Shown here one piece after another: positions 10,202 to 57,641 of a stretch of DNA of 64,000 bases. A program made the position numbers and the translations under genes. Origin of the DNA: Proteobacteria bacterium UBA5680 (lineage in GTDB: Bacteria; Pseudomonadota; Gammaproteobacteria; Arenicellales; UBA5680). The DNA lies in contig DIIC01000044.1 of NCBI GenBank assembly GCA_002420425.1, positions 68,743 to 132,742 on the forward strand, read 5' to 3'. The notes beneath the pieces were generated by a model. That model was given only the letters and a program-made list of their open reading frames with translations. It was not told where the DNA came from and ran no database searches. How positions within the stretch are numbered: the first letter of the stretch is position 1; each line of letters begins with the position of its first letter.

Positions 10202-10441
10202 TCAATGCACAAACTTGCCAATAAAGTTTGCAAGGGCAGCAGAAAACTCGCTCTCAAGTGGAAATGAGAGCATACCCATCACTGAATAACCCAGGATCCA
10301 GGGCATCAGATAGAACCGAATCATATAAAAAAACCAGGCGATGTAGAGTGGAATAAGGGGCTGGATCAGAAACTTGGGACGAAGGTGGGTTTTGACTGTT
10401 GTCGGCCTTACCCACACACTCCAGAATACGACAGAGCCCAC
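10202..10441 (-). CDS. Hypothetical small membrane protein
   Basis: 79-aa hydrophobic ORF inside the AT-rich segment next to tRNA-Phe. No recognisable family. Confidence 0.3.
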   Translation of the reverse strand: MGSVVFWSVWVRPTTVKTHLRPKFLIQPLIPLYIAWFFYMIRFYLMPWILGYSVMGMLSFPLESEFSAALANFIGKFVH

Positions 10442-10599
10442 TATAAATCAGTTGATATCGGCAACTATTCGATCCAGATACCGGAAATCGAGCAACCTCA
10501 ATAAGAGGGCGTAGCTGTAATTGACCGTGGGCCTCCCCAAAGAGGCCCCGATAATCTATCGGTTATTGTGGCTGTTCTGAAGGCTTGGAAATTTAGATT

Positions 10600-17905: not shown

Positions 17906-18709
17906 ATGGATCCAGCACAGAGCTCTCCAACCCGCGCTGGCACGGCAGATATCGCCGGCTGCGCCCTGGAATACAACTGGTATGGCCCCGAACCCTCTCC
18001 ACAGAGCCCCACCCTGGTACTCCTTCATGAGGGGTTGGGCTGTGTTGAGATGTGGGGGGATTTCCCCGCCCGCCTACACCACCAAACCAGGCTCTCTCTG
18101 CTCTGTTACAGCCGCTGTGGCTACGGAAAATCTGGCTCGGCGCCACTATCCCGGTCGGTTGACTATATGCACCAAGAGGCCAAGGAGGTACTCCCCAGGC
18201 TCCTTGATGCCTTCGAAATTCAAAATGCCCTCCTCGTCGGCCACAGTGATGGGGGCTCCATTGCGCTCATCCATGCCGGCTGCGATCTCAACCAACGAAT
18301 CTCAGGGCTGATCCTGTTCGCCCCCCATGTTTTCAATGAACCCTTGAGTGTGCGAAGTATTTCCGAGGCGGCCCGTCTTTATCGAGAGACAGACCTGCGG
18401 GATAAGCTGACGCGGTACCATGGAGAGCAGGTCGACCGGGCCTTCTGGGGGTGGAACCGTGTCTGGCTCAATCCCGACTTTCTTGAGTGGAATATTGAGG
18501 AGTACCTGTCAGCAATCCAGCCGCCTCTGCTCCTTATCCAGGGCAGAGAGGATCAATATGGAACACTGAACCAGCTGGAGGCGATCGAGCGTCAGGTGGC
18601 CGGATACTCAAAAACAATTGTGCTTGAGGCGTGCGCTCATTCACCCCACAGAGACCAGCCGGAAAAAACCCTTCTGGCGATAACTGATTTCATCAGCCAC
18701 CATCTCTAA
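17906..18709 (+). CDS. Alpha/beta-fold hydrolase
   Basis: 267 aa. HEGLG oxyanion region, nucleophile elbow GHSDGG and a C-terminal ACAHSP His. Lies 29 nt downstream of yejF. Confidence 0.75.
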   Translation: MDPAQSSPTRAGTADIAGCALEYNWYGPEPSPQSPTLVLLHEGLGCVEMWGDFPARLHHQTRLSLLCYSRCGYGKSGSAPLSRSVDYMHQEAKEVLPRLLDAFEIQNALLVGHSDGGSIALIHAGCDLNQRISGLILFAPHVFNEPLSVRSISEAARLYRETDLRDKLTRYHGEQVDRAFWGWNRVWLNPDFLEWNIEEYLSAIQPPLLLIQGREDQYGTLNQLEAIERQVAGYSKTIVLEACAHSPHRDQPEKTLLAITDFISHHL

Positions 18710-18732
18710 TCCAGACCGCCCGGATCACTCTT

Positions 18733-19008
18733 TTAAGTTCCGATTGAGAACATCTCCTCAAGATCATGCCTGGAATAAGCTTTGAAGGCGATCATTGACT
18801 CTGTTGACTCGATACCTTCAATTTTGATCAGGTGATCTGTTACCAAGCGTGCCAGATCGTCATTGGTTTTCACCCTAACCACAACAACCAGGTCGTAATT
18901 TCCACTCACTGAATAGACTTCTGAAATCTCATCCAGTTCAGCCAGGGCCTCTGCAACAGCGTTGATAACACCCCGCTGGCAATTAATCAGAATTATTGAA
19001 GTGACCAT
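18733..19008 (-). CDS. Stand-alone Lrp/AsnC ligand-binding (RAM) domain protein
   Basis: 91 aa. ...EALAELDEISEVYSVSGNYDLVVVVRVKTNDDLARLV...IEGIESTESMIAF matches the AsnC_trans_reg fold pattern, and there is no HTH domain. Confidence 0.7.
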   Translation of the reverse strand: MVTSIILINCQRGVINAVAEALAELDEISEVYSVSGNYDLVVVVRVKTNDDLARLVTDHLIKIEGIESTESMIAFKAYSRHDLEEMFSIGT

Positions 19009-19148: not shown

Positions 19149-19213
19149 TTGACAGGAAACCATAAAATAATTAGTGTTGTTACATACTGAAGAGTAGGTA
19201 TGGAGAATACTAA
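19149..19213 (+). promoter_or_regulatory. Putative sigma-70 promoter plus imperfect 16/17-nt inverted repeat (candidate operator or RBS-sequestering hairpin) upstream of the TetR-fusion gene
   Basis: TTGACA at 19149-19154, a 17-nt spacer, then TAGTGT at 19172-19177. The arms ttagtgttgttacatac (19171-19187) and gtatggagaatactaa (19198-19213) match at 13 of 17 positions with one indel. The right arm contains the GGAG Shine-Dalgarno of the ATG at 19216. Confidence 0.4.
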
Positions 19214-19215
19214 CA

Positions 19216-21060
19216 ATGGGAAAGAAAGAGACAACCGTCAATAAAGTGATGGAAACAGCTCAGCAGCTGTTTCTTGATGGCAGCTATGCCGACGTCACCA
19301 TGGATCAGATTGCGGCTGGAGCAGATGTAACCAAAGGGGCGCTCTACCACCACTATTCGAGCAAAGAGGATCTCTATCTGGCAATGATGATCTCAGACCT
19401 GAAGGAGAAAAAAGCGCTTTTCAGCACTGCGGTCGGCCTAAAGGGAAGTTGCCAGGAACGCTTGCGCAACCTGACAGAAGCGTTTCTCATGCTGCCCCCA
19501 AAAAAACGTCTGCTCATAAAACTGGTCAGGCGCAATATTAATACCCTCGGGATCCCCACCCGAAATCAACTAATCAATGCCTATCAGGAGGCCCTGCCCA
19601 ATCAGGTCCAATCGATAATTGAAGACGGTATTGCCAGCAAAGAACTTAAACCCGGAGACCCCCGATTGCTTGCCTGGTCATTTGTCGCCCTGGTGGAGAC
19701 CGTCCTGAGCCTCCATGCTGACAGAATACTCAACGGCAAAGAGAGCAAGCTTGAGTTTGTGCTGAACCTCTTCCTCAACGGCGCCTGTGACCAGAAGGCG
19801 ACAGAGGCGGTAACCGACTTGCTGCAAGACCTTGCAACCACACCAACTGAAGATGACATTATCATCCCCTCTGCGGCCCCGACCCGGAGCGTGGACGACC
19901 CCGTATTTCCTGAGTGGCGAGGCAAGGATCTTGATGACATCCTGCTTGAATGCCGGGATTTGGTTGAGGATGACACCTACCCTACTCTCAGCCGCTGGAG
20001 AGAGAGTGGCAGAAAGATACTGGGACACTTTCAGGTCTACTTTCCTGAAGAGATTGCCCATGCTGCCGACATGCTCCCCTTTAAGGTCAGGGGTGGAACC
20101 GTTGAACCCACCCATGCAGACTCTCGCTTTGGTTCCTATCTCTGCTCGATTCTAAAAACCTCCATGGAACTGGTACTGAGTGATCGGGTCAAACTGGACA
20201 TGTTCGTCACTCACCCGATTTGTGACGCGGCTCGCAATCTCGCAGCCGTATGGGGACGCAACTTTGACTACCCCTGCCAGATCCTCTACCTCCCACAAAA
20301 TGCAAACTCCGGATACACCGCAACCTATCTCCAGGGAGAGTATGACCGACTTCAGAGCACCATCGAAGAGATCTCTGGCAACAGCGTCACCCAGGAGGAG
20401 CTCTCTCAATCGATCGCCCTCTTTAATCGTAACCGGGCACTACTGAGAGAACTCTATGAGATCAAGCGTGACACTCCATGGCTGGTCTCAGCAGAAGATG
20501 CCTACTGTCTGGTAGCTATTAGTGGTCTGATCCCCAAGGAGGAGCACAACCTTCTGCTTGAGACTGTCCTCCCCATGATCCGAAGCCGAACCGATGCAAA
20601 AAAAGAGGATCGGATCCGTATTGTCTTTGAAGGGGGCTTCTGTGAGCAGCCGCCACTCGATCTGATTCGAATGGTTGGCCAGACTTGCTATGTGGTGGAT
20701 GATGACCTGCTGATCGGGCTGCGCTGGATTCTGGAAGATATCCCCACCGAAGGTGACCTCCTCCACAATCTTGCTGATGCGTATTTGGAAAAATCCTCCT
20801 ACAGCCCGGTACAACACGACCTTCGCAAACCGAAAGAGAAGATGTTGCAGCAGCGCGTTGAACAGTCCGGTGCTGAAGCCGTCATCCTGACCGCAGCGAA
20901 GATGTGTGAGCCGGGACTCGAAGAGCAGGTAGCCTACACCCACACGCTGGATAAGGACGGCACCGCCTACTTCGTCAGTGAATTTGAAGAGAATATGACC
21001 AGTTTCGACCATTTGGGGCTGCAACTGGAGACATTCATGGAGAACCTGCTCTTTAGCTAA
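19216..21060 (+). CDS. Fusion protein: full TetR-family regulator (aa 1-~190) + BcrC/BzdN/HgdB-type 2-hydroxyacyl-CoA dehydratase/benzoyl-CoA reductase family subunit (aa ~240-614)
   Basis: N-terminal TetR HTH (VTMDQIAAGADVTKGALYHHYSSKEDLYLAMM) plus a helical ligand domain, then an acidic/Pro linker. The C-terminal part has HGD-D family features (KILGHFQVYFPEEIAHAADMLPF, SYLCS, HPICDAARN, KMCEPGLEE). It is one uninterrupted ORF. Confidence 0.8.
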   Translation: MGKKETTVNKVMETAQQLFLDGSYADVTMDQIAAGADVTKGALYHHYSSKEDLYLAMMISDLKEKKALFSTAVGLKGSCQERLRNLTEAFLMLPPKKRLLIKLVRRNINTLGIPTRNQLINAYQEALPNQVQSIIEDGIASKELKPGDPRLLAWSFVALVETVLSLHADRILNGKESKLEFVLNLFLNGACDQKATEAVTDLLQDLATTPTEDDIIIPSAAPTRSVDDPVFPEWRGKDLDDILLECRDLVEDDTYPTLSRWRESGRKILGHFQVYFPEEIAHAADMLPFKVRGGTVEPTHADSRFGSYLCSILKTSMELVLSDRVKLDMFVTHPICDAARNLAAVWGRNFDYPCQILYLPQNANSGYTATYLQGEYDRLQSTIEEISGNSVTQEELSQSIALFNRNRALLRELYEIKRDTPWLVSAEDAYCLVAISGLIPKEEHNLLLETVLPMIRSRTDAKKEDRIRIVFEGGFCEQPPLDLIRMVGQTCYVVDDDLLIGLRWILEDIPTEGDLLHNLADAYLEKSSYSPVQHDLRKPKEKMLQQRVEQSGAEAVILTAAKMCEPGLEEQVAYTHTLDKDGTAYFVSEFEENMTSFDHLGLQLETFMENLLFS

Positions 21061-21096
21061 CCGCTAAAGTGCGATAAGCCCGAGGAGGAACTGATA

Positions 21097-22395
21097 ATGG
21101 CCGACCAAACAAAGAGTAAAGAGATTGTAGGACGTGGCGCAAGAGATGGCGCCGAGCTATTCAGGGAGTGGTTTAGCTCGCTCAGTGATGTCGCCGAGAA
21201 GGATGGGAAGAACGCCTATGTGTTTGTAATGGGAAGCATGAATGAAATCCTCAAGGCCTTTGACCTGCCCGTGGTCTTTCCTGAGATTAACTCCCTGCAA
21301 ACGGCTGTTCGCAAGGTGGCGCATGAGTTCCTTGATGAGGCTGAAGATTATGGTTACTCACCCGATATCTGTGGTTATGTGAAGGCCGATGTTGCGGTAC
21401 AGCTCAGGGGCGGGGACCACCCGATGGGCCAGATACCCAAACCCTCTATGGCGGTCTACACCAACGCCTGTAATACCTATATCAAGTGGGCCGAGATCTG
21501 GGAGCGCATGTATGGCATTCCCATTTTCACTCTCGACGTTCCCGGCACCCGACAGGGCGGTGTGGTTACATCACGGGGTGAGCGCAGTTTTGAAAATGAC
21601 CGCAGTTATGTTGAAGCCCAGCTGCGTGAACTGATCACGCTCTGTGAAGAGGTAACGGGGAAAAAGTTTGATATCGATAAGCTACGTGAAGTACTGGGTC
21701 ATGCCAATGATGTCAGTACATCCTGGAGTCGGGTGCTTGAGTTAAATTCAAACACGCCCTCTGTATTCAATGCTTTGACCGACGGCACTATCTACCTTGG
21801 TGTCGCCAACGGCTTTCGAGGGACAGCGGCGGGAAGCACCTACTTTAAAAACCTGGTTGAAGAGATGGAGTACAAAGTTAAGCACAGGATCGGCACGCTG
21901 ACTGATGAACAGCACAGACTGCTCTTCGTCGGCGTCCCCTGTTACCCCATATTCCGCCGTTTTAATGAGATCTTTGCCGAGTGGAAGGGAACTTTTGTCA
22001 ACTCTACCTATCTCTGGTTTGCATCGGGTGGAACCAATCGAGGCTTCCAGTATGACCTCAACCGGCCGATCGAGAGCCTGGCGGAAGGGGTGTTGCTGAG
22101 TGTAAGAGACGCCATGGACAGCATGTTCCACCAGAGCATGATGGTCGAAGAAATGTTGAGAGACATGAATGTGGATGGCGTCGTCTACCACCCCATCAAA
22201 AGCTGCCGTACCGTCTCAACCGGGCTTGCAGACAGCCGTCGTTACCTGATGGAACAGTGCGACGTACCCTCACTCTTTATTGAGTCTGACATGATGGACA
22301 AACGTGTTGTCTCTGAAGCCCAGATGAAAAACCGCATTGATGCCTTCTTTGAAGGGTTAGAAACCCGTCGGGCACAGCAGAGTGCAGTAGCGTAA
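21097..22395 (+). CDS. BcrB/BzdO/HgdA-type 2-hydroxyacyl-CoA dehydratase/benzoyl-CoA reductase family subunit
   Basis: 432 aa. HGD-D family pattern ([55 protein letters not shown]). Second gene in Bcr/Bzd-like order. Confidence 0.8.
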
Positions 22396-22412
22396 CCCCC
22401 AGGGAGAATATA

Positions 22413-23222
22413 ATGACTTATGCAGCAGGAGTAGATATCGGCTCAACACAGAGCAAGGCGGTGATCATTGATGAAGAGGGTAACATCGTAGCGACCTCCC
22501 TTGATGACACCGGTGCAAATGTAATCCAGGCCGCAGAGAAGGTCTTTCAGCAGGCCCTCAAAGCAGCCAACCTGAGGGAAGAAGAGGTGGATTATGTCAT
22601 TGGTACCGGTTACGGCCGCTACCGAGTAACCTTCGGTAATGACCAGATAACCGAAATCAGTTGTCATGCCCGTGGGGCTGTCAAAATGTTTCCTGACACC
22701 AGAACAGTGATTGACATGGGGGGCCAGGATACCAAGGCAATCAGTGTCAGTGCAGAGGGTGAGATTGTCGACTTCTGTATGAACGACAAGTGTGCAGCAG
22801 GTACAGGCCGCTTTCTTGGTGCAGCGGCCCAGGCGCTCGACCTCAAGCTTGATGACCTGGGAGTGACCGCACTGCAGGCAGAAAAACCTGTTCGCATCAG
22901 CACCACCTGTACTGTTTTTGCTGAATCTGAAGTCCTTTCATGGTTGGGAAAGGGGAAGAAACTGCCTGATATCCTCTGGGGAGTGCACCAGTCGATTGCT
23001 TCACGCTCGATGGCTCTGCTGCGACGGGTTGGTATTGAAGACAAAATCACCTTCACCGGTGGGGTCACTCGTAATGTTGCCATGGTGAAGGCTCTTGAGG
23101 ATCGCCTTGAAACCAAACTCAATGTCGGCGAAGAGGCTCACTATATGGGTGCCCTTGGGGCAGCCCTCTTTGCCCTGGACCACATTCTCAACAGCCGAAA
23201 ACCCGTATCGGAGGTGGCGTAA
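22413..23222 (+). CDS. BcrAD/BadFG/HgdC-family ATPase (electron-activating subunit 1)
   Basis: 269 aa. ASKHA-fold motifs GVDIGST and DMGGQDTK. Cluster-bridging Cys motifs [12 protein letters not shown] and CTVFAESEV. Confidence 0.85.
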
Positions 23223-24052
23223 TGGATTACACCGCAGGCATTGATGTAGGTTCGACCTACACCAAGTGCGTCATACTCTCTTCTGAAGGTGAGCTTATCA
23301 GCCACTCCCTCGCACCAACGGGTTTCAAGCTGACAGAGGTGGCGGAGAAAACTCTGAACGACTGTATTGAAAAGGCAAGCCTCAACCGAGAAGATATCCG
23401 CTATCTGATCTCAACCGGCTTCGGACGGCATCAGGTCAATGGGAAAGATATTGCAATCACCGACCTTACCGCCAGCGCCCGGGGCGCCAACTTTTGCTTT
23501 GCCGATACACGCACTGTACTCGATATCGGTGGCCAGACAATGAAAGCGAGCCGTCTTGATGACTTGGCCAAGGTTCAGTCATTCAGGCTAAACGACAAGT
23601 GTGCTGCCGGAACCGGTGCCTTTCTTGAAAAGACAGCATTCTACATGGGTTATACCACTGAAGATGTTGGGGCCCTGCTTTCAACGTCAAGAGAGGATGT
23701 CTCGATCTCAGGAGTCTGCGCCGTCTTTGCGGAGTCAGAAGTGATCAACCACCTCTCCCAGGGGACCGCTCCCGCTGACATCATGCAGGGTGCGATCACT
23801 TCCCTTATCAGCCGCTCCATTCAGCTCATGAAGCGTGTCCGTGCCGAACCAGGCTTTACCCTGGTTGGCGGATTGCTGCGCTTTAGTACCATGGTGGACG
23901 ATATTCAGGAGAAGCTGGGGGCCAAGGTTAATGTTCCCAAGGGCGACCTGGTGCAGTTTACTTCTGCATTGGGAGCAGCCGTTCTGGGTCATCACCGCTT
24001 GAAGAAGCTGGGCAAGGGTGGAGGCCTTAGTGTCTCCTCAATCGCTGCATAA
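23222..24052 (+). CDS. BcrAD/BadFG/HgdC-family ATPase (electron-activating subunit 2)
   Basis: 276 aa, a paralog of the preceding gene ([36 protein letters not shown]). Its start overlaps the upstream stop by 1 nt (TAATG). Confidence 0.85.
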   Translation: MDYTAGIDVGSTYTKCVILSSEGELISHSLAPTGFKLTEVAEKTLNDCIEKASLNREDIRYLISTGFGRHQVNGKDIAITDLTASARGANFCFADTRTVLDIGGQTMKASRLDDLAKVQSFRLNDKCAAGTGAFLEKTAFYMGYTTEDVGALLSTSREDVSISGVCAVFAESEVINHLSQGTAPADIMQGAITSLISRSIQLMKRVRAEPGFTLVGGLLRFSTMVDDIQEKLGAKVNVPKGDLVQFTSALGAAVLGHHRLKKLGKGGGLSVSSIAA

Positions 24053-24054
24053 AG

Positions 24055-24348
24055 ATGGGTGATCATAGCCCTCAGGAAGCCTCGGCACTCAGGGTATCCC
24101 TTCCCGACGAGGAGGGCATCCACAGGAATCTTGAGCTTGAGGCTGAGGGTTGGGAGAAACGATACCTGGCCGAACCCGATCGTGCCAAAGAGGCAGTGGC
24201 GATGTACTCCTCTCTGGGTTATGAGGTCAAAGAGCATAAAATTCAACCCGATGAATTCAGCTCTGCCTGCGGGGAGTGCCCCTCTATGGTTTGTCGAACC
24301 CATGTGATGATCTATACCCGAAAAAAAGGGCCCCCAAGAGAAAAATAA
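24055..24348 (+). CDS. Small acidic Cys-containing protein of unknown function, operon-coupled
   Basis: 97-aa ORF starting 2 nt after the stop of the second ATPase. It contains ...GWEKRYLAEPDRAKEAVAMYSSLGYEV...CGECPSMVC...IYTRKK. No family recognised, and a competing overlapping-frame ORF exists at 24059-24307. Confidence 0.4.
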   Translation: MGDHSPQEASALRVSLPDEEGIHRNLELEAEGWEKRYLAEPDRAKEAVAMYSSLGYEVKEHKIQPDEFSSACGECPSMVCRTHVMIYTRKKGPPREK

Positions 24349-45406: not shown

Positions 45407-48400
45407 TTAACTTCCGGCAGGATCGTAGCCGAGAACCGACCCCAGAGATTGCTCCACACTGAGCAGATCCAAGCCCTGACGATCGGCATAATCTTTGGCC
45501 TGATCCTGCCCAATCTTCCCTATCCCAAAATAGCGGGCAGAGGGGTGGGAGAAGTACCAACCGCTTACTGATGCAGCGGGCAGCATTGACCAACTCTCGG
45601 TAAGGGCTATCCCAGCCTTTTCTTCCGCCTCAAGTACCCTCCAGAGGGCGCTCTTGCCAGAGTGGTCTGGACAGGCGGGGTAACCGGGGGCAGGGCGAAT
45701 CCCCTGATATTGCTCCTTAATCAAGGCTTCATTATCCAGGCTCTCTTGCGGTGCATACTCCCAAAGCTCTTTCCGAACCTTCAGATGCATGTATTCTGCA
45801 AAGGCCTCGGCCAGACGGTCTGCCAGCGCTTTTAGCATTATTGATGAGTAATCATCGTGCTGCTGCTGAAAAGCTTTGGCCCGTTCAGCAACACCAATAC
45901 CGGTTGTCACCGCAAATGCGCCGAGGTAATCGGCGACCCCACTCTCTTTTGGGGCGATGAAGTCTGCTAGCGAGAGATTGGAACCACTCTCTCCACGATC
46001 CATCTGCTGGCGCAGAAAGTGACAAGTTGCCAGCTTCTCCTGTCGGCTCTCATCAATATAGAGATCAATATCGTCACCTCGGGTGTTGGCGGGGTAAAAC
46101 CCCACAACACCTCTTGCCTCGATCCACTCCTCCTCGACCATGACATCCAGCGTCTTTCGGGCATCAGAGTAGACCCGGCGTGCCTCCTCACCCTGCCTTG
46201 AGTCATCCAGAATGGCAGGATATTTCCCTTTCAGCTCCCACACCCTGAAGAAGGGGCCCCAATCGATAAAATCGACCAGTCTCTCCAATGGCGTGCCGCC
46301 ATACTCTCGTACCCCCAAAAAAGAGGGTTTTTTCGGCTGGTAGGCTTGCCAGTCTGTTACCAGCTTGTTCTTTCGGGAGGCCTCTATTGACTGCCTGACC
46401 TGGCTGACCTGACGGGTCTCGCGCTGTTCTCGAATATGACGATAAGAGGCGGCCACATCAGAAGCATACTGCTTACCCTTGGACTCACTCAGCAACCCGC
46501 TCGCCACCCCTACGGCTCTTGAGGCATCCGGCACATAGACCACTGGTGATGAATAACAGGGGGCGATCTTTACCGCAGTATGTACTTTTGAAGCCGTTGC
46601 GCCCCCCACTATCAGGGGCACCTTAAACCCCTGGCGTTCAAGCTCACTGGCCAGATGAACCATCTCCTCAAGAGAGGGGGTGATGAGTCCGGAGATGCCG
46701 ATCAGATCGCAGTTTTGCTCTTTGGCCGCAGCCAAAATCTTTTCGGCGGGAACCATCACTCCGAGGTCAATAACCTCATAGCCATTGCACTCCATCACCA
46801 CGCCAACAATATTCTTTCCTATATCGTGAACATCGCCTTTGGCCGTTGCCATCAACAGCTTCCCCTGAGTGGTCATGCCTTCAGTGCCCTTGTCCTTGGC
46901 AAGGTATGGGTCGAGATAGGCAACCGCCCGTTTCATCACCCTTGCTGATTTAACCACCTGGGGAAGAAACATCTTGCCTTCGCCAAACAGGTCGCCGACC
47001 CGGTTCATTCCACTCATCAGCGGCCCCTCTATAACCTCCAGTGGGCGCTCAAACTGACCTCTTGCCTCTTCAGTATCTTCCTCAATGAAATCCGTGATCC
47101 CTTTTACCAGAGCATGCTCAAGACGCTCCTCTACAGGCCACTGGCGCCATTCAAGCCCCTGAACAGTGCTCTCTTTCGTCTCTTCGACCACACTCGCAGC
47201 CACCTCAATAAGACGTTCTGTGGCATCCTCTCTGCGGTTTAGCACCACATCCTCCACCCGCTCTCGGAGGCCTGATTCAATATCTTCGTAGATGGCCAAC
47301 TGCCCTGCGTTGACAATGCCCATTCCAAGACCCGCTTTGATTGCGTGGTAGAGAAAGACGGCATGAATAGCCTCACGCACCGGGTTGTTACCACGAAATG
47401 AAAACGAAACATTGGAGATTCCACCTGATATCAGCACCTCCGGCATCTCTTCTCTGATCTGCCGAGTCGCTTCAATGAAATCAACGGCATACTGGTCATG
47501 CTCTTCAATACCGGTAGCGATTGCAAACACATTGGGGTCAAAGATGATGTTTTCAGACCGGAAGCCGACCTTCTCCACCAGCAGCTCATAGGAGCGCCTG
47601 CAGATCGAAATCCGGCGCTCCAGGGAGTCTGCCTGCCCCTGTTCATCAAAAGCCATCACCACCACGGCAGCGCCATACTGTTTCACTCTCCTCGCCTGGT
47701 GAAGAAAAGAGTCCTCTCCCTCTTTCAAGCTGATCGAGTTAACAACTCCCTTGCCCTGAAGGCACTTCAAGCCCTCTTCAATCACCTCCCACCGTGATGA
47801 GTCAATCATCACCGGAACTCGGGCTATGTCGGGTTCTGCCGCAATCAGCCGCAGAAATTTTGACATCGCAGCGGCTGAGTCCAGCATCGCTTCGTCCATA
47901 TTGATATCGATTATCTGGGCCCCATTTTCAACCTGGTCCCGGGCCACATCGAGAGCGGTCTCATAATCCTCTTCCAGAATGAGGCGTCTAAAGCGCGCCG
48001 ACCCGGTCACATTGGTCCGCTCTCCTACATTGACAAAGAGTGAGCTTTTATCAATCTCCAGAGGTTCCAGGCCTGAAAGCAGGCAGTGGTGTTGGGACGG
48101 CCTCTGACGCCTCGGTTGCTGATCTGCCACAGCCTCATCTATCGCACCAATATGTTCAGGAGTGGTTCCACAGCATCCGCCTACAATATTGAGCAGGCCT
48201 GATTGGGCCCACTCTCTAATATGGGTTGCCATTTCAGCAGGGGTCTCATCATACTCACCGAATTCATTGGGCAGCCCGGCATTGGGATGAGCCGAGATAG
48301 CCGTATCGGCGACAGCTGCCAACTCCTGAATATGAGGCCTGAGGGCATCAGCACCCAAGGCGCAGTTAAGACCGATGCTCATCAACTCTCCATGGGACAG

Positions 48401-49105
48401 GGAAGCCCAAAAAGCAGTTGGAGTCTGGCCGGAGAGAGTCCTTCCCGACTGGTCGGTGATGGTTCCGGACACCATCAGTGGAAGCCGTACCCCCAATGAC
48501 TCAAAGGCCATAAAACAGGCATAGAGCGCTGCTTTTGCATTGAGTGTATCGAAAATTGTTTCAATCAGAAGAACATCTGAACCGCCTTCGATCAACCCTT
48601 CGGCCGCCTCCTGATAGGTCTCAACCAATTGATTGAAATCGACATTTCTAAATCCAGGATCATTGACATCAGGAGAGAGGCTTGCTGTTCGGTTGGTGGG
48701 GCCCAAAACGCCGGCGACAAAGCGGGGTCGGTCTGGATTGCTTGTGGTTTTCGATAGTACGGCCTCTTTGGCGATAGCGGCCGCCTTGAAATTAATCTCT
48801 TTTGCCAATGACGCCATCTTGTAGTCAGCCAGAGAGATGCGGTTGGCATTAAAGGTGTTGGTCTCAATAATATCCGCACCGGCTTCGAGGTAGGCACTAT
48901 GAATTTCGCTGATAATCTCGGGCTGTGAGAGGGTGAGCAGATCATTATTTCCCTTTACCTCTGCCTCCCAATCTGCAAAACGTTGCCCTCGATAGCCCGC
49001 TTCGTCAAGATTGTATTTCTGGATCATGGTGCCCATAGCACCATCAAGGATAAGAATAGACTCTTGCAGGCGCTGGTGTAATAACCCGCTGTGATCAATA
49101 CTCAT
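45407..49105 (-). CDS. metH: Cobalamin-dependent methionine synthase
   Basis: 1232 aa, with all modules in order: Hcy-binding (ILDGAMGT), pterin-binding, B12-binding (GDVHDIGKN) and the AdoMet activation domain. Confidence 0.95.
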
Positions 49106-49107
49106 CT

Positions 49108-49947
49108 TCAGGCTAATGAACCCATGGCTTTGACGACCCTAAGCACCGGGCCAGACCGGTTGAGGGTATAAAAGTGAAGTCCGGGCGCGTCTCCTTCGAT
49201 CAACTGATTACAGAGCAGGGCTACAACATCGGCTCCAAAGGCGCGCAGGGAGTCGAGGTCATCCTGGTAGTCTTCAAGACGACGACGGATCCACCGGGGA
49301 ATCTCTGTTCCGCAGGTATCAGAAAAACGAGCGAGTTGTTTGTAATTGGTAATCGGCATTATCCCCGGGACTACCGGTATGGTAATCCCAAGGTCAGCGA
49401 TATCATCCCGAAATCTGAGGTATGCATCGACATTATAGAAATACTGGGTTATCGCAGAATCTGCTCCTGCCTTGACTTTATCCCTGAAAAAACCGATATC
49501 CTCCCTGAAGGAGGGTGTTTCTGGGTGTGCTTCCGGATAGGCTGCAACATCAATATGAAAAGCGCTGCCACTTATCTCCCGAATAAACTCAATCAGTTCG
49601 ATAGCATAACGAAAGTCACCGTGCTCGATCATTCCAGAGGGACGATCCCCCCTAAGAACAACCAGGCGCTGCACACCAATAGAGCGGTAGTGCTCAAGGA
49701 GCGCTGAAACAGAATCACGCGTCTCTCCGACTCCGGTAAGGTGGGGAACTGCAGGAGTAACCCCCTCTTCAGCAATCTCTTCAATTGCTTGGAGTGTCCC
49801 CTCTCGAGTGCTTCCTCCAGCGCCTGAGGTCACTGAATAAAATTCTGGGTTCAGCTCGGTGAGGGCCAATCGGCTCTCCCTCGCCCTTTGATGACCCTCA
49901 TTCGCCCGAATTGGGAAAAATTCGCAGCTGTATTGCCCCTGAGTCAT
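49108..49947 (-). CDS. metF: 5,10-methylenetetrahydrofolate reductase
   Basis: [31 protein letters not shown] and the [13 protein letters not shown] motifs. Start trimmed to ATG 49947; the stop is 2 nt from the metH start. Confidence 0.9.
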
Positions 49948-49969
49948 TGGTGCTGAACCCTTGATAGAA

Positions 49970-51388
49970 TTAATAACGGTAGTGGTCTGGTTTAAAAGGC
50001 CCCTCACTCGGGACATCAATATAGACCGCCTGCTCCGGAGTAAGTTTGGTCAACCGGGCACCAATTTTGCCGAGGTGTAACTTTGCCACTTTTTCATCCA
50101 GTTGCTTGGGCAACACATAGACCCGGTTGTCATACTGGTCAGGATTATTCAACAGCTCCATCTGAGCCAGAACCTGATTGGTAAATGAGTTGGACATGAC
50201 GAAACTGGGGTGGCCGGTTGCACACCCCAGATTTACCAGCCGGCCCTCTGCAAGAAGGATGATCCGTTTTCCATCGGGGAAAATAATATGGTCTACCTGA
50301 GGCTTAATATTATCCCAACTGTAGCGACGCAAGCTGGCAACATCGATCTCATTATCAAAATGTCCAATATTGCAGACAATGGCCTGGTTCTTCATTGCAA
50401 CCATATGGTCATGGCCAATGACGTGGTAGTTCCCGGTAGCTGTTACAAAGATGTCCGCTTCGGGGGCCCCCTCTTCCATGGTGACTACCCGATAGCCTTC
50501 CATTGCCGCCTGAAGGGCGCAGATGGGATCAATCTCAGTCACCCAGACAATACAGCCCAGACCACGAAGCGACTGGGCACACCCTTTACCCACATCACCG
50601 TATCCGGCAACCAGGGCGATCTTGCCGGCCATCATCACATCAGTTGCACGTTTGATTCCATCTACCAATGACTCCCGACACCCATATAGGTTATCGAACT
50701 TACTTTTGGTAACCGAATCATTAACATTGATTGCGGGAAAAGGCAGTGTCCCGGTGGCCTCCATCTGATAGAGGCGGTGCACGCCTGTGGTTGTCTCTTC
50801 TGTCACCCCACGAATGTTCTTCAGTATATTGGAGTACCAGCCAGGTGATTCTTCCAGTCGCACCCGTATGGCGGCGTAGAGTGCGACCTCTTCTTCACTG
50901 GTTGGATTATCGAGTACGGCAGGATCCTCCTCTGCCTTGGCACCAAGGTTGATGAGCAGGGTCGCATCCCCACCATCATCCAGAATCATGTTGGGTGTTC
51001 CGCCATCGCCCCACTCCATCACCCGATGGGTGTAGTTCCAGTACTCCTCCAGCGTCTCCCCCTTGTAGGCAAATACCGGAATGCCGCTTGTTGCAATCGC
51101 TGCTGCCGCATGGTCCTGGGTGGAGAAGATATTACATGAGACCCAACGCACCTCGGCACCCAGAATCACCAATGTCTCGATCAACACCGCGGTCTGAATC
51201 GTCATGTGGAGACTACCGGCAATACGCGCCCCTTTGAGCGGCTGGCTCTTTGCGTATTCATCACGGAGTGCCATCAACCCTGGCATCTCCGTTTCAGCTA
51301 TTGCAATCTCCTTGCGTCCCCACTCTGATAGAGAGAGATCGGCTACATGGAAATCCTGGTTGGTCACTTCTGCTGTCTGTGTCGACAT
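49970..51388 (-). CDS. ahcY: Adenosylhomocysteinase
   Basis: [37 protein letters not shown] (NAD site), GHFDNEID. Start trimmed to ATG 51388 with GGAGG upstream; the ORF track extends to 51508. Confidence 0.95.
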
Positions 51389-51416
51389 GGTGCCTCCTAG
51401 TGCTTCTAAAGAAGGG

Positions 51417-52592
51417 TTATCTCTCCAGGCCTGCAGCCTCACGAAGCTGCTCTGCCCGGTCTGTTGACTCCCATGGGAATCCCGGCTCTTCACGACCAAA
51501 ATGACCATAGGCCGCTGTCTTCTGGTAGTTGACCCGATCAGTGTTCAACAGATCCAGCATCTTCAGGAGCCCATAAGGTCGAAGGTCAAAATGCTCACGG
51601 ATCAATGTTTCAATTTGATTGTCGGCAACTTTACCGGTACCAAAGGTATTGACCATCACTGATGTGGGCTCAGCCACACCAATGGCATAGGAGGTTTGAA
51701 TCTCACATCGTTCAGCAAGTCCGGCAGCTACAATATTTTTAGCCACATAGCGACTTGCGTAGGCGGCAGATCGATCAACCTTGGAAGGGTCTTTGCCAGA
51801 AAATGCACCCCCCCCATGATGAGCTGAGCCACCGTATGTATCGACAATGATTTTACGCCCTGTCAGGCCGCAGTCACCAACCGGGCCTCCGATGACAAAG
51901 GCACCGGTAGGGTTGATATGAATCTTGGTGCTGTTATCGATCCAGCCTTCAGGCAATACAGGGATAATGATGTTTTCCATTACCGCTTCATGCAGATGGT
52001 CGTTATCAATATCAGGATCATGCTGGGTGGAGAGCACCACCGCATCAAGACCAGCCACCTCTCCCTGCTCGTAGCGAAAAGTCACCTGGCTCTTGGCATC
52101 TGGGCGCAGCCAGGGCAGTACATTGGTCTTGCGCATCTCTGCCTGACGCTCAACAAGTCGATGTGCATAGGTGATCGGGGCGGGCATTAATACATCGGTC
52201 TCATTAGTGGCATAGCCAAACATTAATCCCTGATCGCCAGCCCCCTGATCCTCGGCACGCTCACGATCAACACCCTGGTTAATATCCGCTGACTGCTTGC
52301 CAATCAGTGACATGACCGCACAAGTACTTCCATCGAAGCCAACATCTGAACTGGTATAGCCTATGCCGCAAACCGTATCTCGAACGATCTGCTCCAGATC
52401 AACCCAGGCATCGGTTGTGACCTCACCAGCAACAACAACAGCGCCGGTCTTTATAAGGGTTTCGCACGCAACTCGTGCCGCCTTGTCTTCGGCAATAATA
52501 GCGTCCAGGATGGCATCTGAAATCTGATCGGCCACTTTATCAGGGTGTCCTTCTGAGACCGATTCAGAGGTAAAAAAATAACTGTTACTCAT
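51417..52592 (-). CDS. metK: S-adenosylmethionine synthetase
   Basis: 391 aa. [41 protein letters not shown] and [16 protein letters not shown]. Confidence 0.95.
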
Positions 52593-54892: not shown

Positions 54893-54894
54893 CT

Positions 54895-55965: not shown

Positions 55966-55978
55966 CTGTTACCTCTTT

Positions 55979-55995
55979 CGCACCATTATGGTGCG
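55979..55995. promoter_or_regulatory. Palindromic NtrC-type binding site upstream of ntrB
   Basis: cGCACCAttaTGGTGCg is a perfect inverted repeat matching the NtrC consensus TGCACC-N5-GGTGCA core, 14 nt upstream of the ntrB start. Confidence 0.6.
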
Positions 55996-56004
55996 TTACG
56001 GAGC

Positions 56005-56032
56005 AAAAAAAGCGCCCCGCCATGGGGGCGCT
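56005..56032 (-). terminator. Rho-independent terminator after glnA
   Basis: Minus-strand RNA AGCGCCCC-cauggc-GGGGCGCU (8-bp stem) is followed by a U7 run, 10 nt after the glnA stop. Confidence 0.7.
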
Positions 56033-56042
56033 CCTTCACAAC

Positions 56043-57452: not shown

Positions 57453-57641
57453 TGGGTAACTCCCTTTAAAATAAATTAAGCCGATGGTGCGACTTATCGG
57501 TATTGTAAGTAATGAGACGACACCGTCTTCTCGTTGCAAAAGCCGAATAATCCACAATGGACATTTTCAGACCGTCTGCAAACACTTGTAGTAGTCCCAC
57601 CAGTGATCGCCGACCACGGTAAAACCTCAACCCTCAATATT

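What the first reader, a model, noticed from the sequence alone, without database searches (positions are those of the whole stretch)
19216..24348. Orphan Bzd/Bcr-like four-subunit ATP-dependent Fe-S enzyme operon with no pathway context
Seen in sequence:
- The gene order is C-like, B-like, ATPase, ATPase (614, 432, 269 and 276 aa). This mirrors bcrCBAD, badDEFG and especially the Azoarcus-type bzdNOPQ order.
- The junctions are tight: gaps of 36 and 17 nt, a 1-nt overlap, then a 2-nt gap.
- The surrounding genes are a peptide ABC importer, a hydrolase, DUF4126, an MFS transporter, trmB and similar.
- I find no aryl/acyl-CoA ligase, dienoyl-CoA hydratase, dehydrogenase, ring hydrolase, 2x[4Fe-4S] ferredoxin or ferredoxin-regenerating oxidoreductase anywhere in the window.

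Established knowledge:
- This superfamily includes class I benzoyl-CoA reductases, 2-hydroxyacyl-CoA dehydratases and the double-cubane-cluster reductases.
- It also includes uncharacterised pairs such as E. coli YjiL/YjiM.
- A heterodimeric ATPase module encoded next to both catalytic subunits is the reductase-type (Bcr/Bzd) arrangement, not the dehydratase arrangement.

Inference: this is an ATP-driven low-potential reductase or dehydratase acting on an unknown substrate. It is probably not a benzoate pathway enzyme. It is the best candidate in this window for an undescribed system.
Basis: partly seen in the sequence, partly recalled or inferred. Interest (0 to 1): 0.8.

Follow-up and report, generated by a model that had tools for sequence, protein, structure and literature searches.

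The report
Benzoyl-CoA reductase fused to its repressor
This is a known kind of oxygen-sensitive, ATP-driven enzyme that breaks the aromaticity of benzoate-like compounds, here in an uncultured marine bacterium, with the unusual twist that one enzyme subunit is fused to the operon's own repressor.

Summary
The ORFs, sizes, junctions and lack of pathway genes in the window are real. The system is not undescribed.

- **Identity.** All four subunits match, one to one, the solved 3-methylbenzoyl-CoA reductase (MBR: MbdN/O/Q/P; E 1e-96 to 1e-164). Identity is about 55-57% for the catalytic pair. All Fe-S cysteines are kept. It belongs to a tight sister clade of MBR, 71-84% identical in the best 80 of at least 578 species genomes, all uncultured, from more than 12 phyla.
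- **Pathway link.** In several clade members the operon sits beside had and oah ring-cleavage genes that pass NCBIfam equivalog cut-offs.
  - The 614-aa "C-like" protein is a TetR repressor (residues 1-190) joined by a disordered linker to the gamma subunit.
  - In other phyla this TetR is a separate gene, translationally coupled and directly upstream. The fusion is specific to Arenicellales.
  - An ATAC-N10-GTAT palindrome (19184-19201) matches the published MbdR operator consensus. It is the only such site in the window and lies just after the promoter's -10 box.
  - A conserved, uncharacterised 97-aa CxxC protein is a fifth gene.
  - The upstream hydrolase is a conserved companion.

Verdict: a new variant of a known kind. 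The substrate is probably benzoyl-CoA or a close analogue. Whether the downstream pathway exists in this genome was not tested.

The parts
17906..18709 (+). alpha/beta-hydrolase; conserved companion gene of the operon in Arenicellales, role unknown
   Evidence: Pfam Abhydrolase_6/1. It is 60% identical over 248 aa to the hydrolase between the CoA ligase and the ABC transporter next to the fused operon in L213/L214, and 53% identical in L131. No NCBIfam equivalog; the best hit is PcaD at 57 bits against a cut-off of 256.
19149..19177 (+). sigma-70-like promoter: -35 TTGACA (19149-19154), 17-nt spacer, -10 TAGTGT (19172-19177)
   Evidence: Read from the sequence. The same TTGAC box lies 32-37 nt before the palindrome in 16 of the 17 orthologous loci whose palindrome has at most one mismatch (42 nt in the other). 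The tool's stricter consensus scan did not list it, because the -10 matches only 3 of 6. Inferred, not shown.
19183..19202 (.). operator palindrome CATACTGAAGAGTAGGTATG (core ATAC-N10-GTAT, 19184-19201)
   Evidence: It is the only ATAC-N10-GTAT site in the 64 kb (expected 0.24). It starts 6 nt after the -10 box and ends 14 nt before the start codon. The same palindrome stands in the same place before the TetR gene or fusion in 10/27 loci exactly and 17/27 with at most one mismatch; 8 of the other 10 carry a related longer palindrome. It matches the experimentally footprinted MbdR operator consensus ATACN10GTAT (PMC4424350).
19216..19785 (+). TetR-family repressor domain (residues 1-190) of the 614-aa fusion protein
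   Evidence: Pfam TetR_N E 1.5e-13 plus TetR_C_24/27. It is 46-57% identical over about 188 aa to the stand-alone TetR gene directly upstream of the gamma gene in 23 loci of other phyla. The AF2 model is all-helical, with mean pLDDT of 73-92 in most 10-residue blocks.
19786..19893 (+). flexible linker (residues 191-226), rich in T, P, D and A
   Evidence: AF2 pLDDT is below 50 across residues 191-226. Identity among the Arenicellales fusions is only 27-37%, against 57% for TetR and 74-75% for the gamma domain. It has no counterpart in unfused orthologues, where the TetR stop overlaps the gamma start as ATGA.
19894..21060 (+). gamma subunit domain (MbdN/BcrC-like, residues 227-614)
   Evidence: PDB 9g87_B MbdN: 501 bits, E 1.5e-149, 56.5% identity. 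Cys310, Cys336 and Cys564 are invariant and shared with MbdN and HadC; Cys476 is shared with MbdN. NCBIfam BcrC scores 237 against a cut-off of 421, and BzdN 68 against 454.
21097..22395 (+). beta subunit (MbdO/BcrB-like; substrate-binding, catalytic [4Fe-4S])
   Evidence: PDB 9g87_A MbdO: 549 bits, E 7e-164, 55.1% identity. Cys92, Cys125 and Cys370 align with the BzdO cluster ligands Cys95, Cys128 and Cys380 and are invariant in 71 clade members. Glu63 and Tyr94 are invariant in all 71 clade members; Tyr94 aligns with BzdO Tyr97, and Glu63 lies in a PEINS motif just outside the aligned stretch, so I only infer it to be the counterpart of BzdO Glu65.
22413..23222 (+). alpha subunit (MbdQ-like ATPase)
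   Evidence: PDB 9gai_D MbdQ: 395 bits, E 1.4e-117. Cys127 and Cys166, the expected ligands of the bridging cluster, are invariant.
23222..24052 (+). delta subunit (MbdP-like ATPase)
   Evidence: PDB 9gai_C MbdP: 325 bits, E 3.1e-96. Cys127 and Cys166 are invariant.
24055..24348 (+). conserved small CxxC protein of unknown function (97 aa)
   Evidence: It follows the delta gene in 59 of 80 genome loci (tblastn). Invariant residues are G32, W33, R36, E46, Y51, G55, C72, C75, T88 and R89. At least 672 protein clusters exist, every one that carries a source name is called 'hypothetical', and none has a Pfam hit. AF2 gives a small alpha/beta core (mean pLDDT 71.6) with no PDB fold match at E <= 0.001.

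Best explanation
**What it is.** The locus is an autoregulated operon for an MBR-type class I (ATP-dependent) benzoyl-CoA reductase in a marine Arenicellales bacterium.

**How the enzyme works (inferred from the family).**
- The two ATPase subunits (alpha, delta) share a bridging [4Fe-4S] cluster.
- They use ATP hydrolysis to push low-potential electrons into the gamma/beta catalytic pair.
- An aryl-CoA bound in beta, most likely benzoyl-CoA or a ring-substituted analogue, is reduced there to a cyclic dienoyl-CoA.

**How it is regulated (inferred).**
- The first cistron encodes the operon's own TetR repressor.
- In other phyla this is a separate gene, translationally coupled to gamma. In Arenicellales it is fused to gamma through a disordered linker of about 36 residues.
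- The TetR domain is expected to dimerise and bind the ATAC-N10-GTAT palindrome. The palindrome overlaps the predicted transcription start, so binding would shut off the operon.
- Release would come when an aryl-CoA inducer binds, as shown for MbdR with 3-methylbenzoyl-CoA.

**Other parts.**
- A conserved 97-aa CxxC protein is a fifth product of unknown role.
- The uptake, CoA-ligation, ferredoxin-regeneration and ring-cleavage genes are not in this window, so they must lie elsewhere or be missing.

**Shown here:** homology, domain structure, conservation, operator position and gene contexts.

**Inferred:** catalysis, substrate, DNA binding, inducer, and that the fusion protein stays intact.
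For: 1. **Subunit matches.** Best PDB matches are one to one with MbdN, MbdO, MbdQ and MbdP, at 501, 549, 395 and 325 bits. HadB/C and BzdN/O score only 71-122 bits. Identity to MbdN and MbdO is 56.5% and 55.1%.
2. **Fe-S ligands.** All expected cysteine ligands are invariant in 55-102 aligned homologues. BzdO ligand positions are conserved.
3. **Phylogeny.** The clade plus MbdN excludes the 33-42%-identical representatives in 100/100 NJ bootstraps.
4. **Pathway neighbours in other phyla.** In Gemmatimonadota and Methylomirabilis loci, the neighbours of orthologues 70-77% identical (63-69% for delta) pass NCBIfam equivalog cut-offs. Had scores 461 and 438 against 339. Oah scores 572 and 544 against 464. 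The best hit of a third neighbour is Dch. An Actinomycetota locus (L039) carries a 4-hydroxybenzoyl-CoA-reductase-like alpha subunit, at 860 bits.
5. **Context in Arenicellales relatives.** The fused operon sits beside a CoA ligase, a TRAP or LIV-type transporter and an IOR-like ferredoxin oxidoreductase (L211-L215). In L211/L212 it also sits beside Fnr and HemN.
6. **Origin of the TetR domain.** It is 46-57% identical to a stand-alone TetR gene directly upstream of gamma in 23 loci. That gene's stop overlaps the gamma start by 4 nt.
7. **Operator.** The unique ATAC-N10-GTAT site lies between the -10 box and the start codon. It is conserved in place across phyla. It equals the footprinted MbdR operator consensus, and MbdR is released by 3-methylbenzoyl-CoA (PMC4424350).
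8. **The fusion is real and maintained.** An almost identical 614-aa protein (the same 90% cluster as the window's; 12 amino-acid differences) is indexed in 135 blocks of the assembly collection; 23 contigs carrying it were read. Five 90%-identity clusters hold 165 member sequences. The fusions are monophyletic in 97/100 bootstraps. pN/pS is 0.15-0.18 for the TetR, linker and gamma parts, though on few substitutions. AF2 gives two folded domains and a linker with pLDDT below 50.
Against: - No dch, had or oah, ferredoxin, CoA ligase or ferredoxin-reducing enzyme occurs in 64 kb. No ring-cleavage genes occur within 10 kb in any of the Arenicellales contigs examined.
- Only 13 of 53 long loci across phyla carry a strict Had or Oah orthologue within 10 kb.
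- The ligases next to the Arenicellales and Planctomycetota operons score as generic fatty-acyl-type ligases, not as the benzoate-CoA ligase family.
- The characterised MBR is only 55-57% identical and lies outside the clade in 72/100 bootstraps.
- In beta, 64 positions that are at least 90% conserved in the clade differ from MbdO. Some lie beside the cluster ligands, for example Tyr128 against Phe, and His in BzdO. Substrate range may therefore differ.
- The TetR domain resembles MbdR itself only in the HTH region (27 bits, E 4.6e-5).
- The window's palindrome differs at 4 of 20 positions from that of the other Arenicellales.
- The same palindrome type stands beside many other TetR genes in metagenomes, so it is not specific to this operon.
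- No member of this clade has been assayed, to my knowledge.
Confidence: 0.72

Rival explanations
1. The enzyme is an ATP-driven reductase for a different, non-benzoate substrate, such as an alicyclic, heterocyclic or unusual acyl-CoA. The clade would then be a fourth functional type that only resembles MBR.
For: - The local context lacks ring-pathway genes, and most loci across phyla lack Had or Oah nearby (40 of 53).
- Neighbouring ligases are fatty-acyl-type rather than the benzoate-CoA ligase family.
- The clade is a distinct and extremely conserved sister group of MBR, with 64 clade-conserved positions in beta that differ from MbdO, some beside the active-site cluster.
- A conserved small protein that I do not know from described BCR operons accompanies it.
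Against: - Wherever dedicated neighbours do occur, they are benzoyl-CoA pathway genes. Had and Oah pass equivalog cut-offs, and Dch-like, 4-hydroxybenzoyl-CoA-reductase-like and PaaX genes are also present.
- The TetR-coupled subtype, like the window's, sits beside had-, oah- and dch-like and HCR-like gene clusters in Actinomycetota and Elusimicrobiota loci.
- The operator architecture equals that of the aryl-CoA-responsive MbdR.
- The catalytic Cys, Glu and Tyr positions are kept.
Confidence: 0.17
2. The operon is a stranded remnant in this lineage. The module arrived or persisted without its pathway and is no longer used, or is decaying.
For: - The neighbourhood erodes between Arenicellales lineages. 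The ligase, transporter and OFOR are present in L211-L215 and absent here. In L213-L215 only an 82-aa 3HCDH fragment remains.
- A 1.7-kb deletion removed a UbiD-family gene in the window, relative to conspecific contigs.
- The window's operator has diverged from that of its relatives.
Against: - All five ORFs are intact and full length against MBR.
- All Fe-S ligands are kept.
- Conspecific contigs differ mostly by synonymous changes, with pN/pS of 0-0.42.
- The promoter, operator and Shine-Dalgarno sequence are intact.
- An almost identical fusion protein (12 amino-acid differences from the window's) recurs in many independent assemblies.
Confidence: 0.07
3. It is a 2-hydroxyacyl-CoA dehydratase with its activator, or a double-cubane-cluster reductase, rather than a benzoyl-CoA reductase.
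For: Same superfamily. HadB/HadC and double-cubane NCBIfam models give significant but sub-threshold hits.
Against: - HadC scores 150 bits against a cut-off of 700. HadB scores 155 against 750. The double-cubane model scores 105 against 350.
- PDB scores for Had and DCCP chains are 32-122 bits, against 501-549 for MBR.
- Two different ATPase genes, each best matching a different MBR ATPase subunit, fit the heterotetrameric reductase design.
Confidence: 0.03

Closest known systems
MBR-type class I benzoyl-CoA reductase (3-methylbenzoyl-CoA reductase MbdONQP; PDB 9g87, 9gai)
   Same: - Four subunits with one-to-one best matches, at 325-549 bits.
- All Fe-S cysteine ligands are the same.
- Two distinct ATPase subunits are encoded beside the catalytic pair. 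The type is described as a permanent heterotetramer (PMC11971306).
- Both are controlled by a TetR-family repressor with an ATAC-N10-GTAT operator.
   Different: - Identity is only 55-57%, and the window's clade is a sister group (72/100 bootstraps).
- In beta, 64 clade-conserved positions differ from MbdO.
- The gene order is gamma-beta-alpha-delta, not O-N-Q-P.
- The repressor is fused to gamma.
- An extra conserved 97-aa CxxC gene is present.
- No ferredoxin, KGOR, ligase or hydratase/dehydrogenase/hydrolase genes are adjacent.
MbdR, TetR-family repressor of the mbd cluster of Azoarcus sp. CIB (PDB 4uds; PMC4424350)
   Same: - TetR fold.
- An operator of the form ATAC-N10-GTAT that overlaps the transcription start region of the reductase promoter.
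- Autoregulation.
   Different: - Sequence similarity is limited to the HTH region (27 bits, E 4.6e-5), so it is not an orthologue.
- Here the regulator is the first cistron of the reductase operon and is covalently joined to a catalytic subunit.
- The inducer is unknown.
BCR-type (Thauera aromatica BcrCBAD, Rhodopseudomonas BadDEFG)
   Same: Gene order C-B-A-D, an ATP-dependent heterotetramer, and the same superfamily.
   Different: NCBIfam equivalog scores are far below cut-off: 237 against 421, 209 against 487, 209 against 578 and 123 against 313. In the 50%-identity representative library, every full-length hit other than P0177 (55%) and P0179 (50%) is 42% identical or less.
BZD-type (Aromatoleum BzdNOPQ; PDB 8s02)
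   Same: Gene order N-O-P-Q, and the same catalytic [4Fe-4S] ligand positions in the O/beta subunit.
   Different: BzdN and BzdO score only 71 and 83 bits. BzdO His131 is Tyr here. [quoted passage not shown] No test was made for the six-cysteine double-cubane site of BzdN.
Enzyme-repressor fusions such as PutA (own knowledge, not tested here)
   Same: A metabolic enzyme polypeptide that also carries the DNA-binding domain controlling its own operon.
   Different: PutA uses a ribbon-helix-helix domain and a membrane or redox switch. Here the domain is TetR on one subunit of a multi-subunit Fe-S enzyme. Whether enzyme state affects DNA binding is unknown.

Membership tests
Class I benzoyl-CoA reductase, MBR type | Four subunits: two HGD-D-type catalytic subunits and two different BcrAD-type ATPases, each orthologous to MbdN, MbdO, MbdQ and MbdP | tested here: met
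   Pfam. The best PDB hit of each ORF is a different MBR subunit: 501, 549, 395 and 325 bits. The clade plus MbdN is monophyletic in 100/100 bootstraps.
Class I benzoyl-CoA reductase, MBR type | Cysteine ligands for the catalytic, gamma and ATPase-bridging [4Fe-4S] clusters | tested here: met
   Beta Cys92, Cys125 and Cys370; gamma Cys310, Cys336 and Cys564; alpha and delta Cys127 and Cys166. All are invariant and align to the BzdO ligands.
Class I benzoyl-CoA reductase, MBR type | ATP-dependent two-electron reduction of benzoyl-CoA or analogues to a dienoyl-CoA | not testable with these tools
   This needs anaerobic biochemistry.
Class I benzoyl-CoA reductase, MBR type | Genomic association with the downstream dienoyl-CoA hydratase, hydroxyacyl-CoA dehydrogenase and ring hydrolase (dch/had/oah or mbdW/X/Y) | tested here: not met
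   None is present in the 64-kb window, nor within 10 kb in the Arenicellales relatives. The feature is met in orthologues of other phyla, where Had and Oah exceed equivalog cut-offs. The rest of this genome was not available.
Class I benzoyl-CoA reductase, MBR type | A low-potential ferredoxin and a ferredoxin-reducing 2-oxoacid oxidoreductase nearby | tested here: not met
   No ferredoxin motif occurs in any frame, and there is no OFOR in the window. An IOR-like OFOR lies within a few kb upstream of the fused operon in L212-L215 (directly adjacent in L213-L215).
BCR type (BcrCBAD/BadDEFG; NCBIfam TIGR02263, TIGR02260, TIGR02259, TIGR02261) | Score at or above the NCBIfam equivalog cut-off | tested here: not met
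   237 against 421; 209 against 487; 209 against 578; 123 against 313.
BZD type (BzdNOPQ; NCBIfam TIGR03190, TIGR03191, TIGR03192) | Score at or above the NCBIfam equivalog cut-off | tested here: not met
   68 against 454; 100 against 449; 180 and 145 against 380.
2-hydroxyacyl-CoA dehydratase (HadBC/HgdAB plus activator) | Equivalog-level similarity to the dehydratase subunits, and a single homodimeric activator gene | tested here: not met
   150 against 700 and 155 against 750. Two distinct ATPase genes are present, each best matching a different MBR ATPase subunit.
Double-cubane-cluster protein (DCCP) | NCBIfam NF040772 equivalog score; a homodimeric single catalytic subunit | tested here: not met
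   105 and 59 bits against 350. Two different catalytic subunits are present.
MbdR-like TetR repressor of an aryl-CoA reductase operon | TetR HTH domain plus ligand/dimerisation domain | tested here: met
   TetR_N E 1.5e-13 and TetR_C_24/27. The AF2 model is all-helical for residues 1-190.
MbdR-like TetR repressor of an aryl-CoA reductase operon | ATAC-N10-GTAT operator overlapping the promoter or transcription start of the reductase operon | tested here: met
   A unique site lies at 19184-19201, 6 nt after the -10 box. It is conserved in place in orthologous loci. The consensus comes from PMC4424350. Binding itself was not tested.
MbdR-like TetR repressor of an aryl-CoA reductase operon | Sequence orthology to MbdR | tested here: not met
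   Only 27 bits, E 4.6e-5, restricted to residues 6-61.
MbdR-like TetR repressor of an aryl-CoA reductase operon | Release from DNA by the aryl-CoA substrate of the pathway | not testable with these tools
   This needs a gel-shift or footprint assay with CoA esters.

The most novel reading that the evidence does not exclude
The fusion is not a passive accident but a 'trigger enzyme'. The gamma subunit of the reductase is itself the repressor, so two alpha-beta-gamma-delta complexes would be tied together through the TetR dimer. Operator binding would then respond to the state of the enzyme (substrate occupancy, assembly, or redox/oxygen damage of its clusters), not only to free aryl-CoA.

Together with the uncharacterised CxxC protein, this would define a distinct, never-assayed fourth branch of class I benzoyl-CoA reductases. 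That branch is spread through at least 578 uncultured species. It includes abundant pelagic Arenicellales, which would imply oxygen-free aromatic-ring reduction in the ocean water column.
Probability: 0.2. Interest if true: 0.7.

Novelty: new variant of a known kind. Interest (0 to 1): 0.45.

Why it matters
- **An unassayed clade.** Class I benzoyl-CoA reductases have been studied almost only in a few denitrifying Betaproteobacteria and phototrophs. This locus belongs to a very conserved clade found in hundreds of uncultured species. No member has been assayed, and it carries an unknown conserved small protein.
- **A rare natural fusion.** Joining a pathway repressor to a subunit of the enzyme it controls raises testable questions. 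These concern stoichiometry (a dimeric repressor on a heterotetramer), feedback, and whether the enzyme's state is read out at the promoter.
- **Ecology.** An oxygen-sensitive aromatic-ring reductase in marine Arenicellales, next to Fnr and HemN in relatives, points to aromatic carbon turnover in low-oxygen water or particles.
- **Annotation.** The case shows that 'orphan' Bcr-like operons can be resolved by comparing neighbourhoods across phyla.

Tried and rejected
1. **Regulon hunt with the operator.** An exact scan of metagenome contigs for CATACYGACYRGTCGGTATG gave 120 or more hits, of which 80 were returned as loci. Only 2 of those 80 carry the reductase. At least 24 of the others stand beside ~200-aa TetR-like genes; those detectable with the window's TetR domain are 22-44% identical. 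The palindrome type is therefore shared by a wider TetR subfamily and cannot be used to find the missing pathway genes.
2. **Fold search for the small protein.** No PDB match at E <= 0.001; the top hits were generic ferredoxin-like folds at E about 1. PDB sequence search and Pfam/NCBIfam also gave nothing.
3. **Other TetR-gamma fusions.** The 1.84-billion-representative search showed none among the best 150 hits. It did reveal a hemerythrin-gamma fusion.
4. **Literature.**
   - No paper combines Arenicellales with benzoyl-CoA.
   - The paper behind PDB 9g87/9gai was not found.
   - One search was wasted on too broad a term.
5. **Internal translation start.** An internal start could yield free gamma. 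GTG226 aligns with the Met1 of unfused gamma, but its GGAG lies only 1 nt upstream. The codon is also not conserved in the other Arenicellales fusions. This is unlikely but not excluded.
6. **Synteny of the upstream Opp-type ABC transporter** with the Opp-type transporter in L001/L008. They are only about 25% identical over a fragment, so they are not orthologous.
7. **Hydrolase, MFS, AsnC-like and SBP genes.** NCBIfam gave no equivalog-level hit.
8. **Bootstrap run.** A first bootstrap with Biopython's BLOSUM distance timed out. It was replaced by a Kimura-distance NJ bootstrap.

Full report
**1. Observation**

They lie at 19216-21060 (614 aa), 21097-22395 (432 aa), 22413-23222 (269 aa), 23222-24052 (276 aa) and 24055-24348 (97 aa). 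The junctions are 36 nt, 17 nt, a 1-nt overlap and 2 nt.

Pfam finds HGD-D on the first two ORFs and BcrAD_BadFG on the next two. It also finds a TetR_N domain (E 1.5e-13) and TetR_C domains in residues 1-165 of the 614-aa protein. There is no stop codon or frame change between the two halves.

The rest of the window is a housekeeping chromosome region. It holds dapF, mutY, copA, an Opp-type ABC system, trmB, rpiA, acrAB, folA, thyA, pepN, metH, metF, ahcY, metK, ntrBC, glnA, adk and glyQ.

tblastn with pathway proteins taken from related loci hits only the five operon genes. No 2x[4Fe-4S] ferredoxin motif exists in any frame. The local absence of pathway genes is therefore real.

**2. What the enzyme is**

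Sequence search of the PDB gives one-to-one best matches to the four subunits of 3-methylbenzoyl-CoA reductase (entries 9g87 and 9gai):

| Window part | Best PDB match | Bits | E-value |
|---|---|---|---|
| gamma domain | MbdN | 501 | 1.5e-149 |
| 432-aa protein | MbdO | 549 | 7e-164 |
| 269-aa protein | MbdQ | 395 | 1.4e-117 |
| 276-aa protein | MbdP | 325 | 3.1e-96 |

BzdN/BzdO, HadB/HadC and the double-cubane protein score only 32-122 bits. BLASTP identity is 56.5% to MbdN and 55.1% to MbdO.

NCBIfam equivalog models for the Thauera BCR type, the Azoarcus BZD type, HadBC and the double-cubane reductase all score far below their cut-offs. The literature recognises three class I types: BCR, MBR and BZD. 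The BCR and MBR types form permanent heterotetramers (PMC11971306). This operon belongs to the MBR type.

The cysteine ligands are invariant across 55-102 aligned homologues:
- Beta: Cys92, Cys125 and Cys370. These align with the BzdO ligands Cys95, Cys128 and Cys380.
- Gamma: Cys310, Cys336 and Cys564.
- Each ATPase: Cys127 and Cys166.

**3. The clade**

The window comes from an uncultured marine Arenicellales bacterium. Older records label the group Acidiferrobacteraceae.

The best 80 are all MAGs from more than 12 phyla, at 71-84% identity.
- In an NJ tree the clade is monophyletic. MbdN plus one representative form its sister group; MbdN falls outside the clade in 72/100 bootstraps. The clade plus MbdN excludes the 33-42%-identical representatives in 100/100 bootstraps.
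- In beta, 64 positions that are at least 90% conserved in the clade differ from MbdO. These include residues beside the cluster ligands. For example, Tyr128 is invariant in the clade, is Phe in MbdO, and aligns with His131 of BzdO.
- Metagenome surveys already annotate benzoyl-CoA reductase genes in such phyla at the KO level (bioRxiv 10.1101/2025.11.25.690425). I found no biochemical study of a member of this clade.

**4. Is it really without a pathway?**

Not at the level of the family:
- In a Gemmatimonadota chromosome and a Methylomirabilis contig, the operon (63-77% identical to the window's subunits, 70-77% for gamma, beta and alpha) is flanked by a Zn-dehydrogenase and a 363-367-aa crotonase-family protein. 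Both exceed the NCBIfam equivalog cut-offs. Had scores 461 and 438 against 339. Oah scores 572 and 544 against 464. In the Gemmatimonadota locus a 252-aa crotonase has Dch as its best hit.
- Anaerolineae loci add PaaX, a CoA-transferase, a thiolase and a thioesterase.
- Four Actinomycetota loci carry a conserved 814-aa gene whose representative (L039) has 4-hydroxybenzoyl-CoA reductase alpha as its best hit, at 860 bits against a cut-off of 995.

The association is far from universal. Only 13 of 53 loci of at least 12 kb carry a strict Had or Oah orthologue within 10 kb.

Within Arenicellales, three other lineages of the same fused operon have the following neighbours:
- Opp-type ABC genes upstream, and crotonase, 3-hydroxyacyl-CoA dehydrogenase, a Crp/Fnr-family regulator and a HemN-like radical-SAM gene downstream (L001-L003).
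- A divergent AMP-forming ligase, a TRAP transporter and an IOR-like ferredoxin oxidoreductase upstream, and Fnr and HemN downstream (L211/L212).
- A ligase, a hydrolase, a LIV-type ABC transporter and a divergent IOR-like oxidoreductase (L213-L215).

That layout of transporter, ligase, ferredoxin-regenerating enzyme and reductase parallels the mbd cluster (PMC4424350). None of these contigs shows had or oah within 10 kb, and the ligases score as generic fatty-acyl type.

The window's lineage keeps only the alpha/beta-hydrolase, which is 60% identical to the one in L213/L214. Conspecific contigs (98.8-99.6% nucleotide identity) share the window's arrangement.

**5. The TetR fusion**

- In 23 loci of other phyla, a gene of about 206 aa lies directly upstream of gamma on the same strand.
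- It is 46-57% identical over about 188 residues to residues 1-190 of the window's protein.
- Where the start is unambiguous, its stop overlaps the gamma start codon as ATGA.
- In Arenicellales the two genes are joined through about 36 extra residues, rich in T, P, D and A. These residues are poorly conserved: 27-37% identity, against 57% for TetR and 74-75% for gamma.
- AlphaFold2 gives a helical TetR domain, a linker with pLDDT below 50 (residues 191-226) and a confident gamma domain.
- The fusion occurs in five 90%-identity clusters with 165 member sequences. A protein of the window's own 90% cluster (12 amino-acid differences) is indexed in 135 blocks of the assembly collection. The fusions are monophyletic in 97/100 bootstraps. 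It is therefore a single, maintained evolutionary event and not an assembly error.
- Between the window and conspecific contigs, pN/pS is 0.15-0.18 for the TetR, linker and gamma parts. This rests on only 2-7 non-synonymous changes per part.
- No other TetR-gamma fusion appeared among the best 150 of 1.84 billion representatives. A hemerythrin-gamma fusion did.

**6. Promoter and operator**

The upstream region reads as follows:
- TTGACA (19149-19154), then 17 nt, then TAGTGT (19172-19177).
- The palindrome CATACTGAAGAGTAGGTATG (19183-19202).
- GGAG (19202-19205) and the ATG at 19216.

The core ATAC-N10-GTAT occurs once in 64 kb, where 0.24 is expected.

The same palindrome follows a TTGAC box by 32-37 nt, ahead of the TetR gene or fusion, in 10 of 27 loci exactly and in 17 of 27 with at most one mismatch. 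Eight further loci, mostly labelled Actinomycetota or Acidimicrobiia, have a related longer palindrome.

ATACN10GTAT is the operator consensus footprinted for MbdR. MbdR is the TetR repressor of the Azoarcus mbd (MBR) cluster, and its PO operator spans the transcription start. It is released by 3-methylbenzoyl-CoA (PMC4424350).

The window's TetR domain resembles MbdR only in the HTH region, so this is a functional parallel and not orthology. The palindrome type also stands beside many unrelated TetR genes in metagenomes.

**7. The fifth gene**

- The 97-aa ORF follows delta in 59 of 80 genome loci.
- It has an invariant core: GW.RR, LY..LG.E, C..C and YTR.
- It forms at least 672 protein clusters; those that carry a source name are called 'hypothetical' and none has a Pfam domain.
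- It has no Pfam, NCBIfam or PDB match.
- It folds into a small alpha/beta core (mean pLDDT 71.6) without a significant structural neighbour.
- Its role is unknown. An assembly factor, an electron carrier or an extra subunit are all possible.

**8. Conclusion**

The best-supported reading is an autoregulated MBR-type class I benzoyl-CoA reductase operon. It is made of a TetR-gamma fusion, beta, alpha, delta and a small CxxC protein, and it acts on benzoyl-CoA or a close analogue.

What is new is the repressor-subunit fusion, the conserved small protein, and membership in a very widespread clade that has never been assayed. What stays open is the substrate, whether the lower pathway exists in this genome, and whether the fusion changes how regulation works.

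Noticed in passing
window 10260-10501: A 50-aa remnant (88% identity) of a UbiD-family decarboxylase. The gene is intact (461 aa; TIGR00148 266 against a cut-off of 245; VdcC-like 240 bits) in conspecific contigs L209/L210. The window carries a deletion of about 1.7 kb there.
   Followed up: partly
window 17906-19008: The alpha/beta-hydrolase and a 91-aa ORF that has only an AsnC/Lrp ligand-binding domain (no HTH) are present in L208 but absent from conspecific L209/L210. This is a strain-level indel directly upstream of the operon promoter.
   Followed up: partly
P0209; loci L011, L028, L044, L072, L082, L087 and others: Hemerythrin genes lie near the reductase module in 7 of 53 long loci. 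One lineage has a hemerythrin domain fused to the N-terminus of the gamma subunit. This is a second kind of N-terminal fusion on the same subunit and may relate to oxygen sensing or protection.
   Followed up: partly
L088-L167 (metagenome contigs): The 20-bp palindrome CATACYGACYRGTCGGTATG occurs in 120 or more metagenome contigs. In at least 24 of the 80 returned it lies directly upstream of a ~200-aa TetR-like gene, and only 2 of the 80 carry the reductase. A whole TetR subfamily appears to share this operator type.
   Followed up: partly
L017, L018, L026, L028, L087 (Planctomycetota): A variant neighbourhood. A second HGD-D-like gene plus a BcrAD ATPase, a 1157-aa DUF2889-AMP-binding ligase fusion, a thiolase and an 824-aa protein with a 3-hydroxyacyl-CoA dehydrogenase domain all lie directly upstream of gamma.
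   Followed up: partly
L039, L044, L079, L084 (Actinomycetota/Acidimicrobiia): The TetR-coupled reductase module sits beside xanthine-oxidase-family genes. In L044, L079 and L084 it also sits beside had-, oah- and dch-like genes. The best NCBIfam hit of the representative tested (L039) is 4-hydroxybenzoyl-CoA reductase alpha, at 860 bits against a cut-off of 995.
   Followed up: partly
L213-L215, about 15146-15394 in L213: Only an 82-aa fragment with a 3HCDH C-terminal domain remains where L001-L003 have an intact 3-hydroxyacyl-CoA dehydrogenase and crotonase. The neighbourhood is decaying between Arenicellales lineages.
   Followed up: no
L001-L003, L009, L211, L212: An Fnr-type regulator (246 bits against a cut-off of 228) and the oxygen-independent coproporphyrinogen oxidase HemN (541 against 325) lie just downstream of the fused operon in L211/L212. 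L001-L003 and L009 carry clustered homologues. This suggests expression under low oxygen. Neither gene is in the window.
   Followed up: partly
window 45407-52592: A compact methyl-cycle block on the minus strand: metH (1232 aa), metF, ahcY and metK. It is followed by ntrBC and glnA at 53492-57557. Ordinary, and unrelated to the finding.
   Followed up: no
window 19891-19893 (codon 226, GTG): A GTG codon in the linker aligns with the Met1 of unfused gamma subunits, but it has only a poorly spaced GGAG upstream. It is not conserved in the other fusions. An internal start that makes free gamma cannot be excluded.
   Followed up: partly
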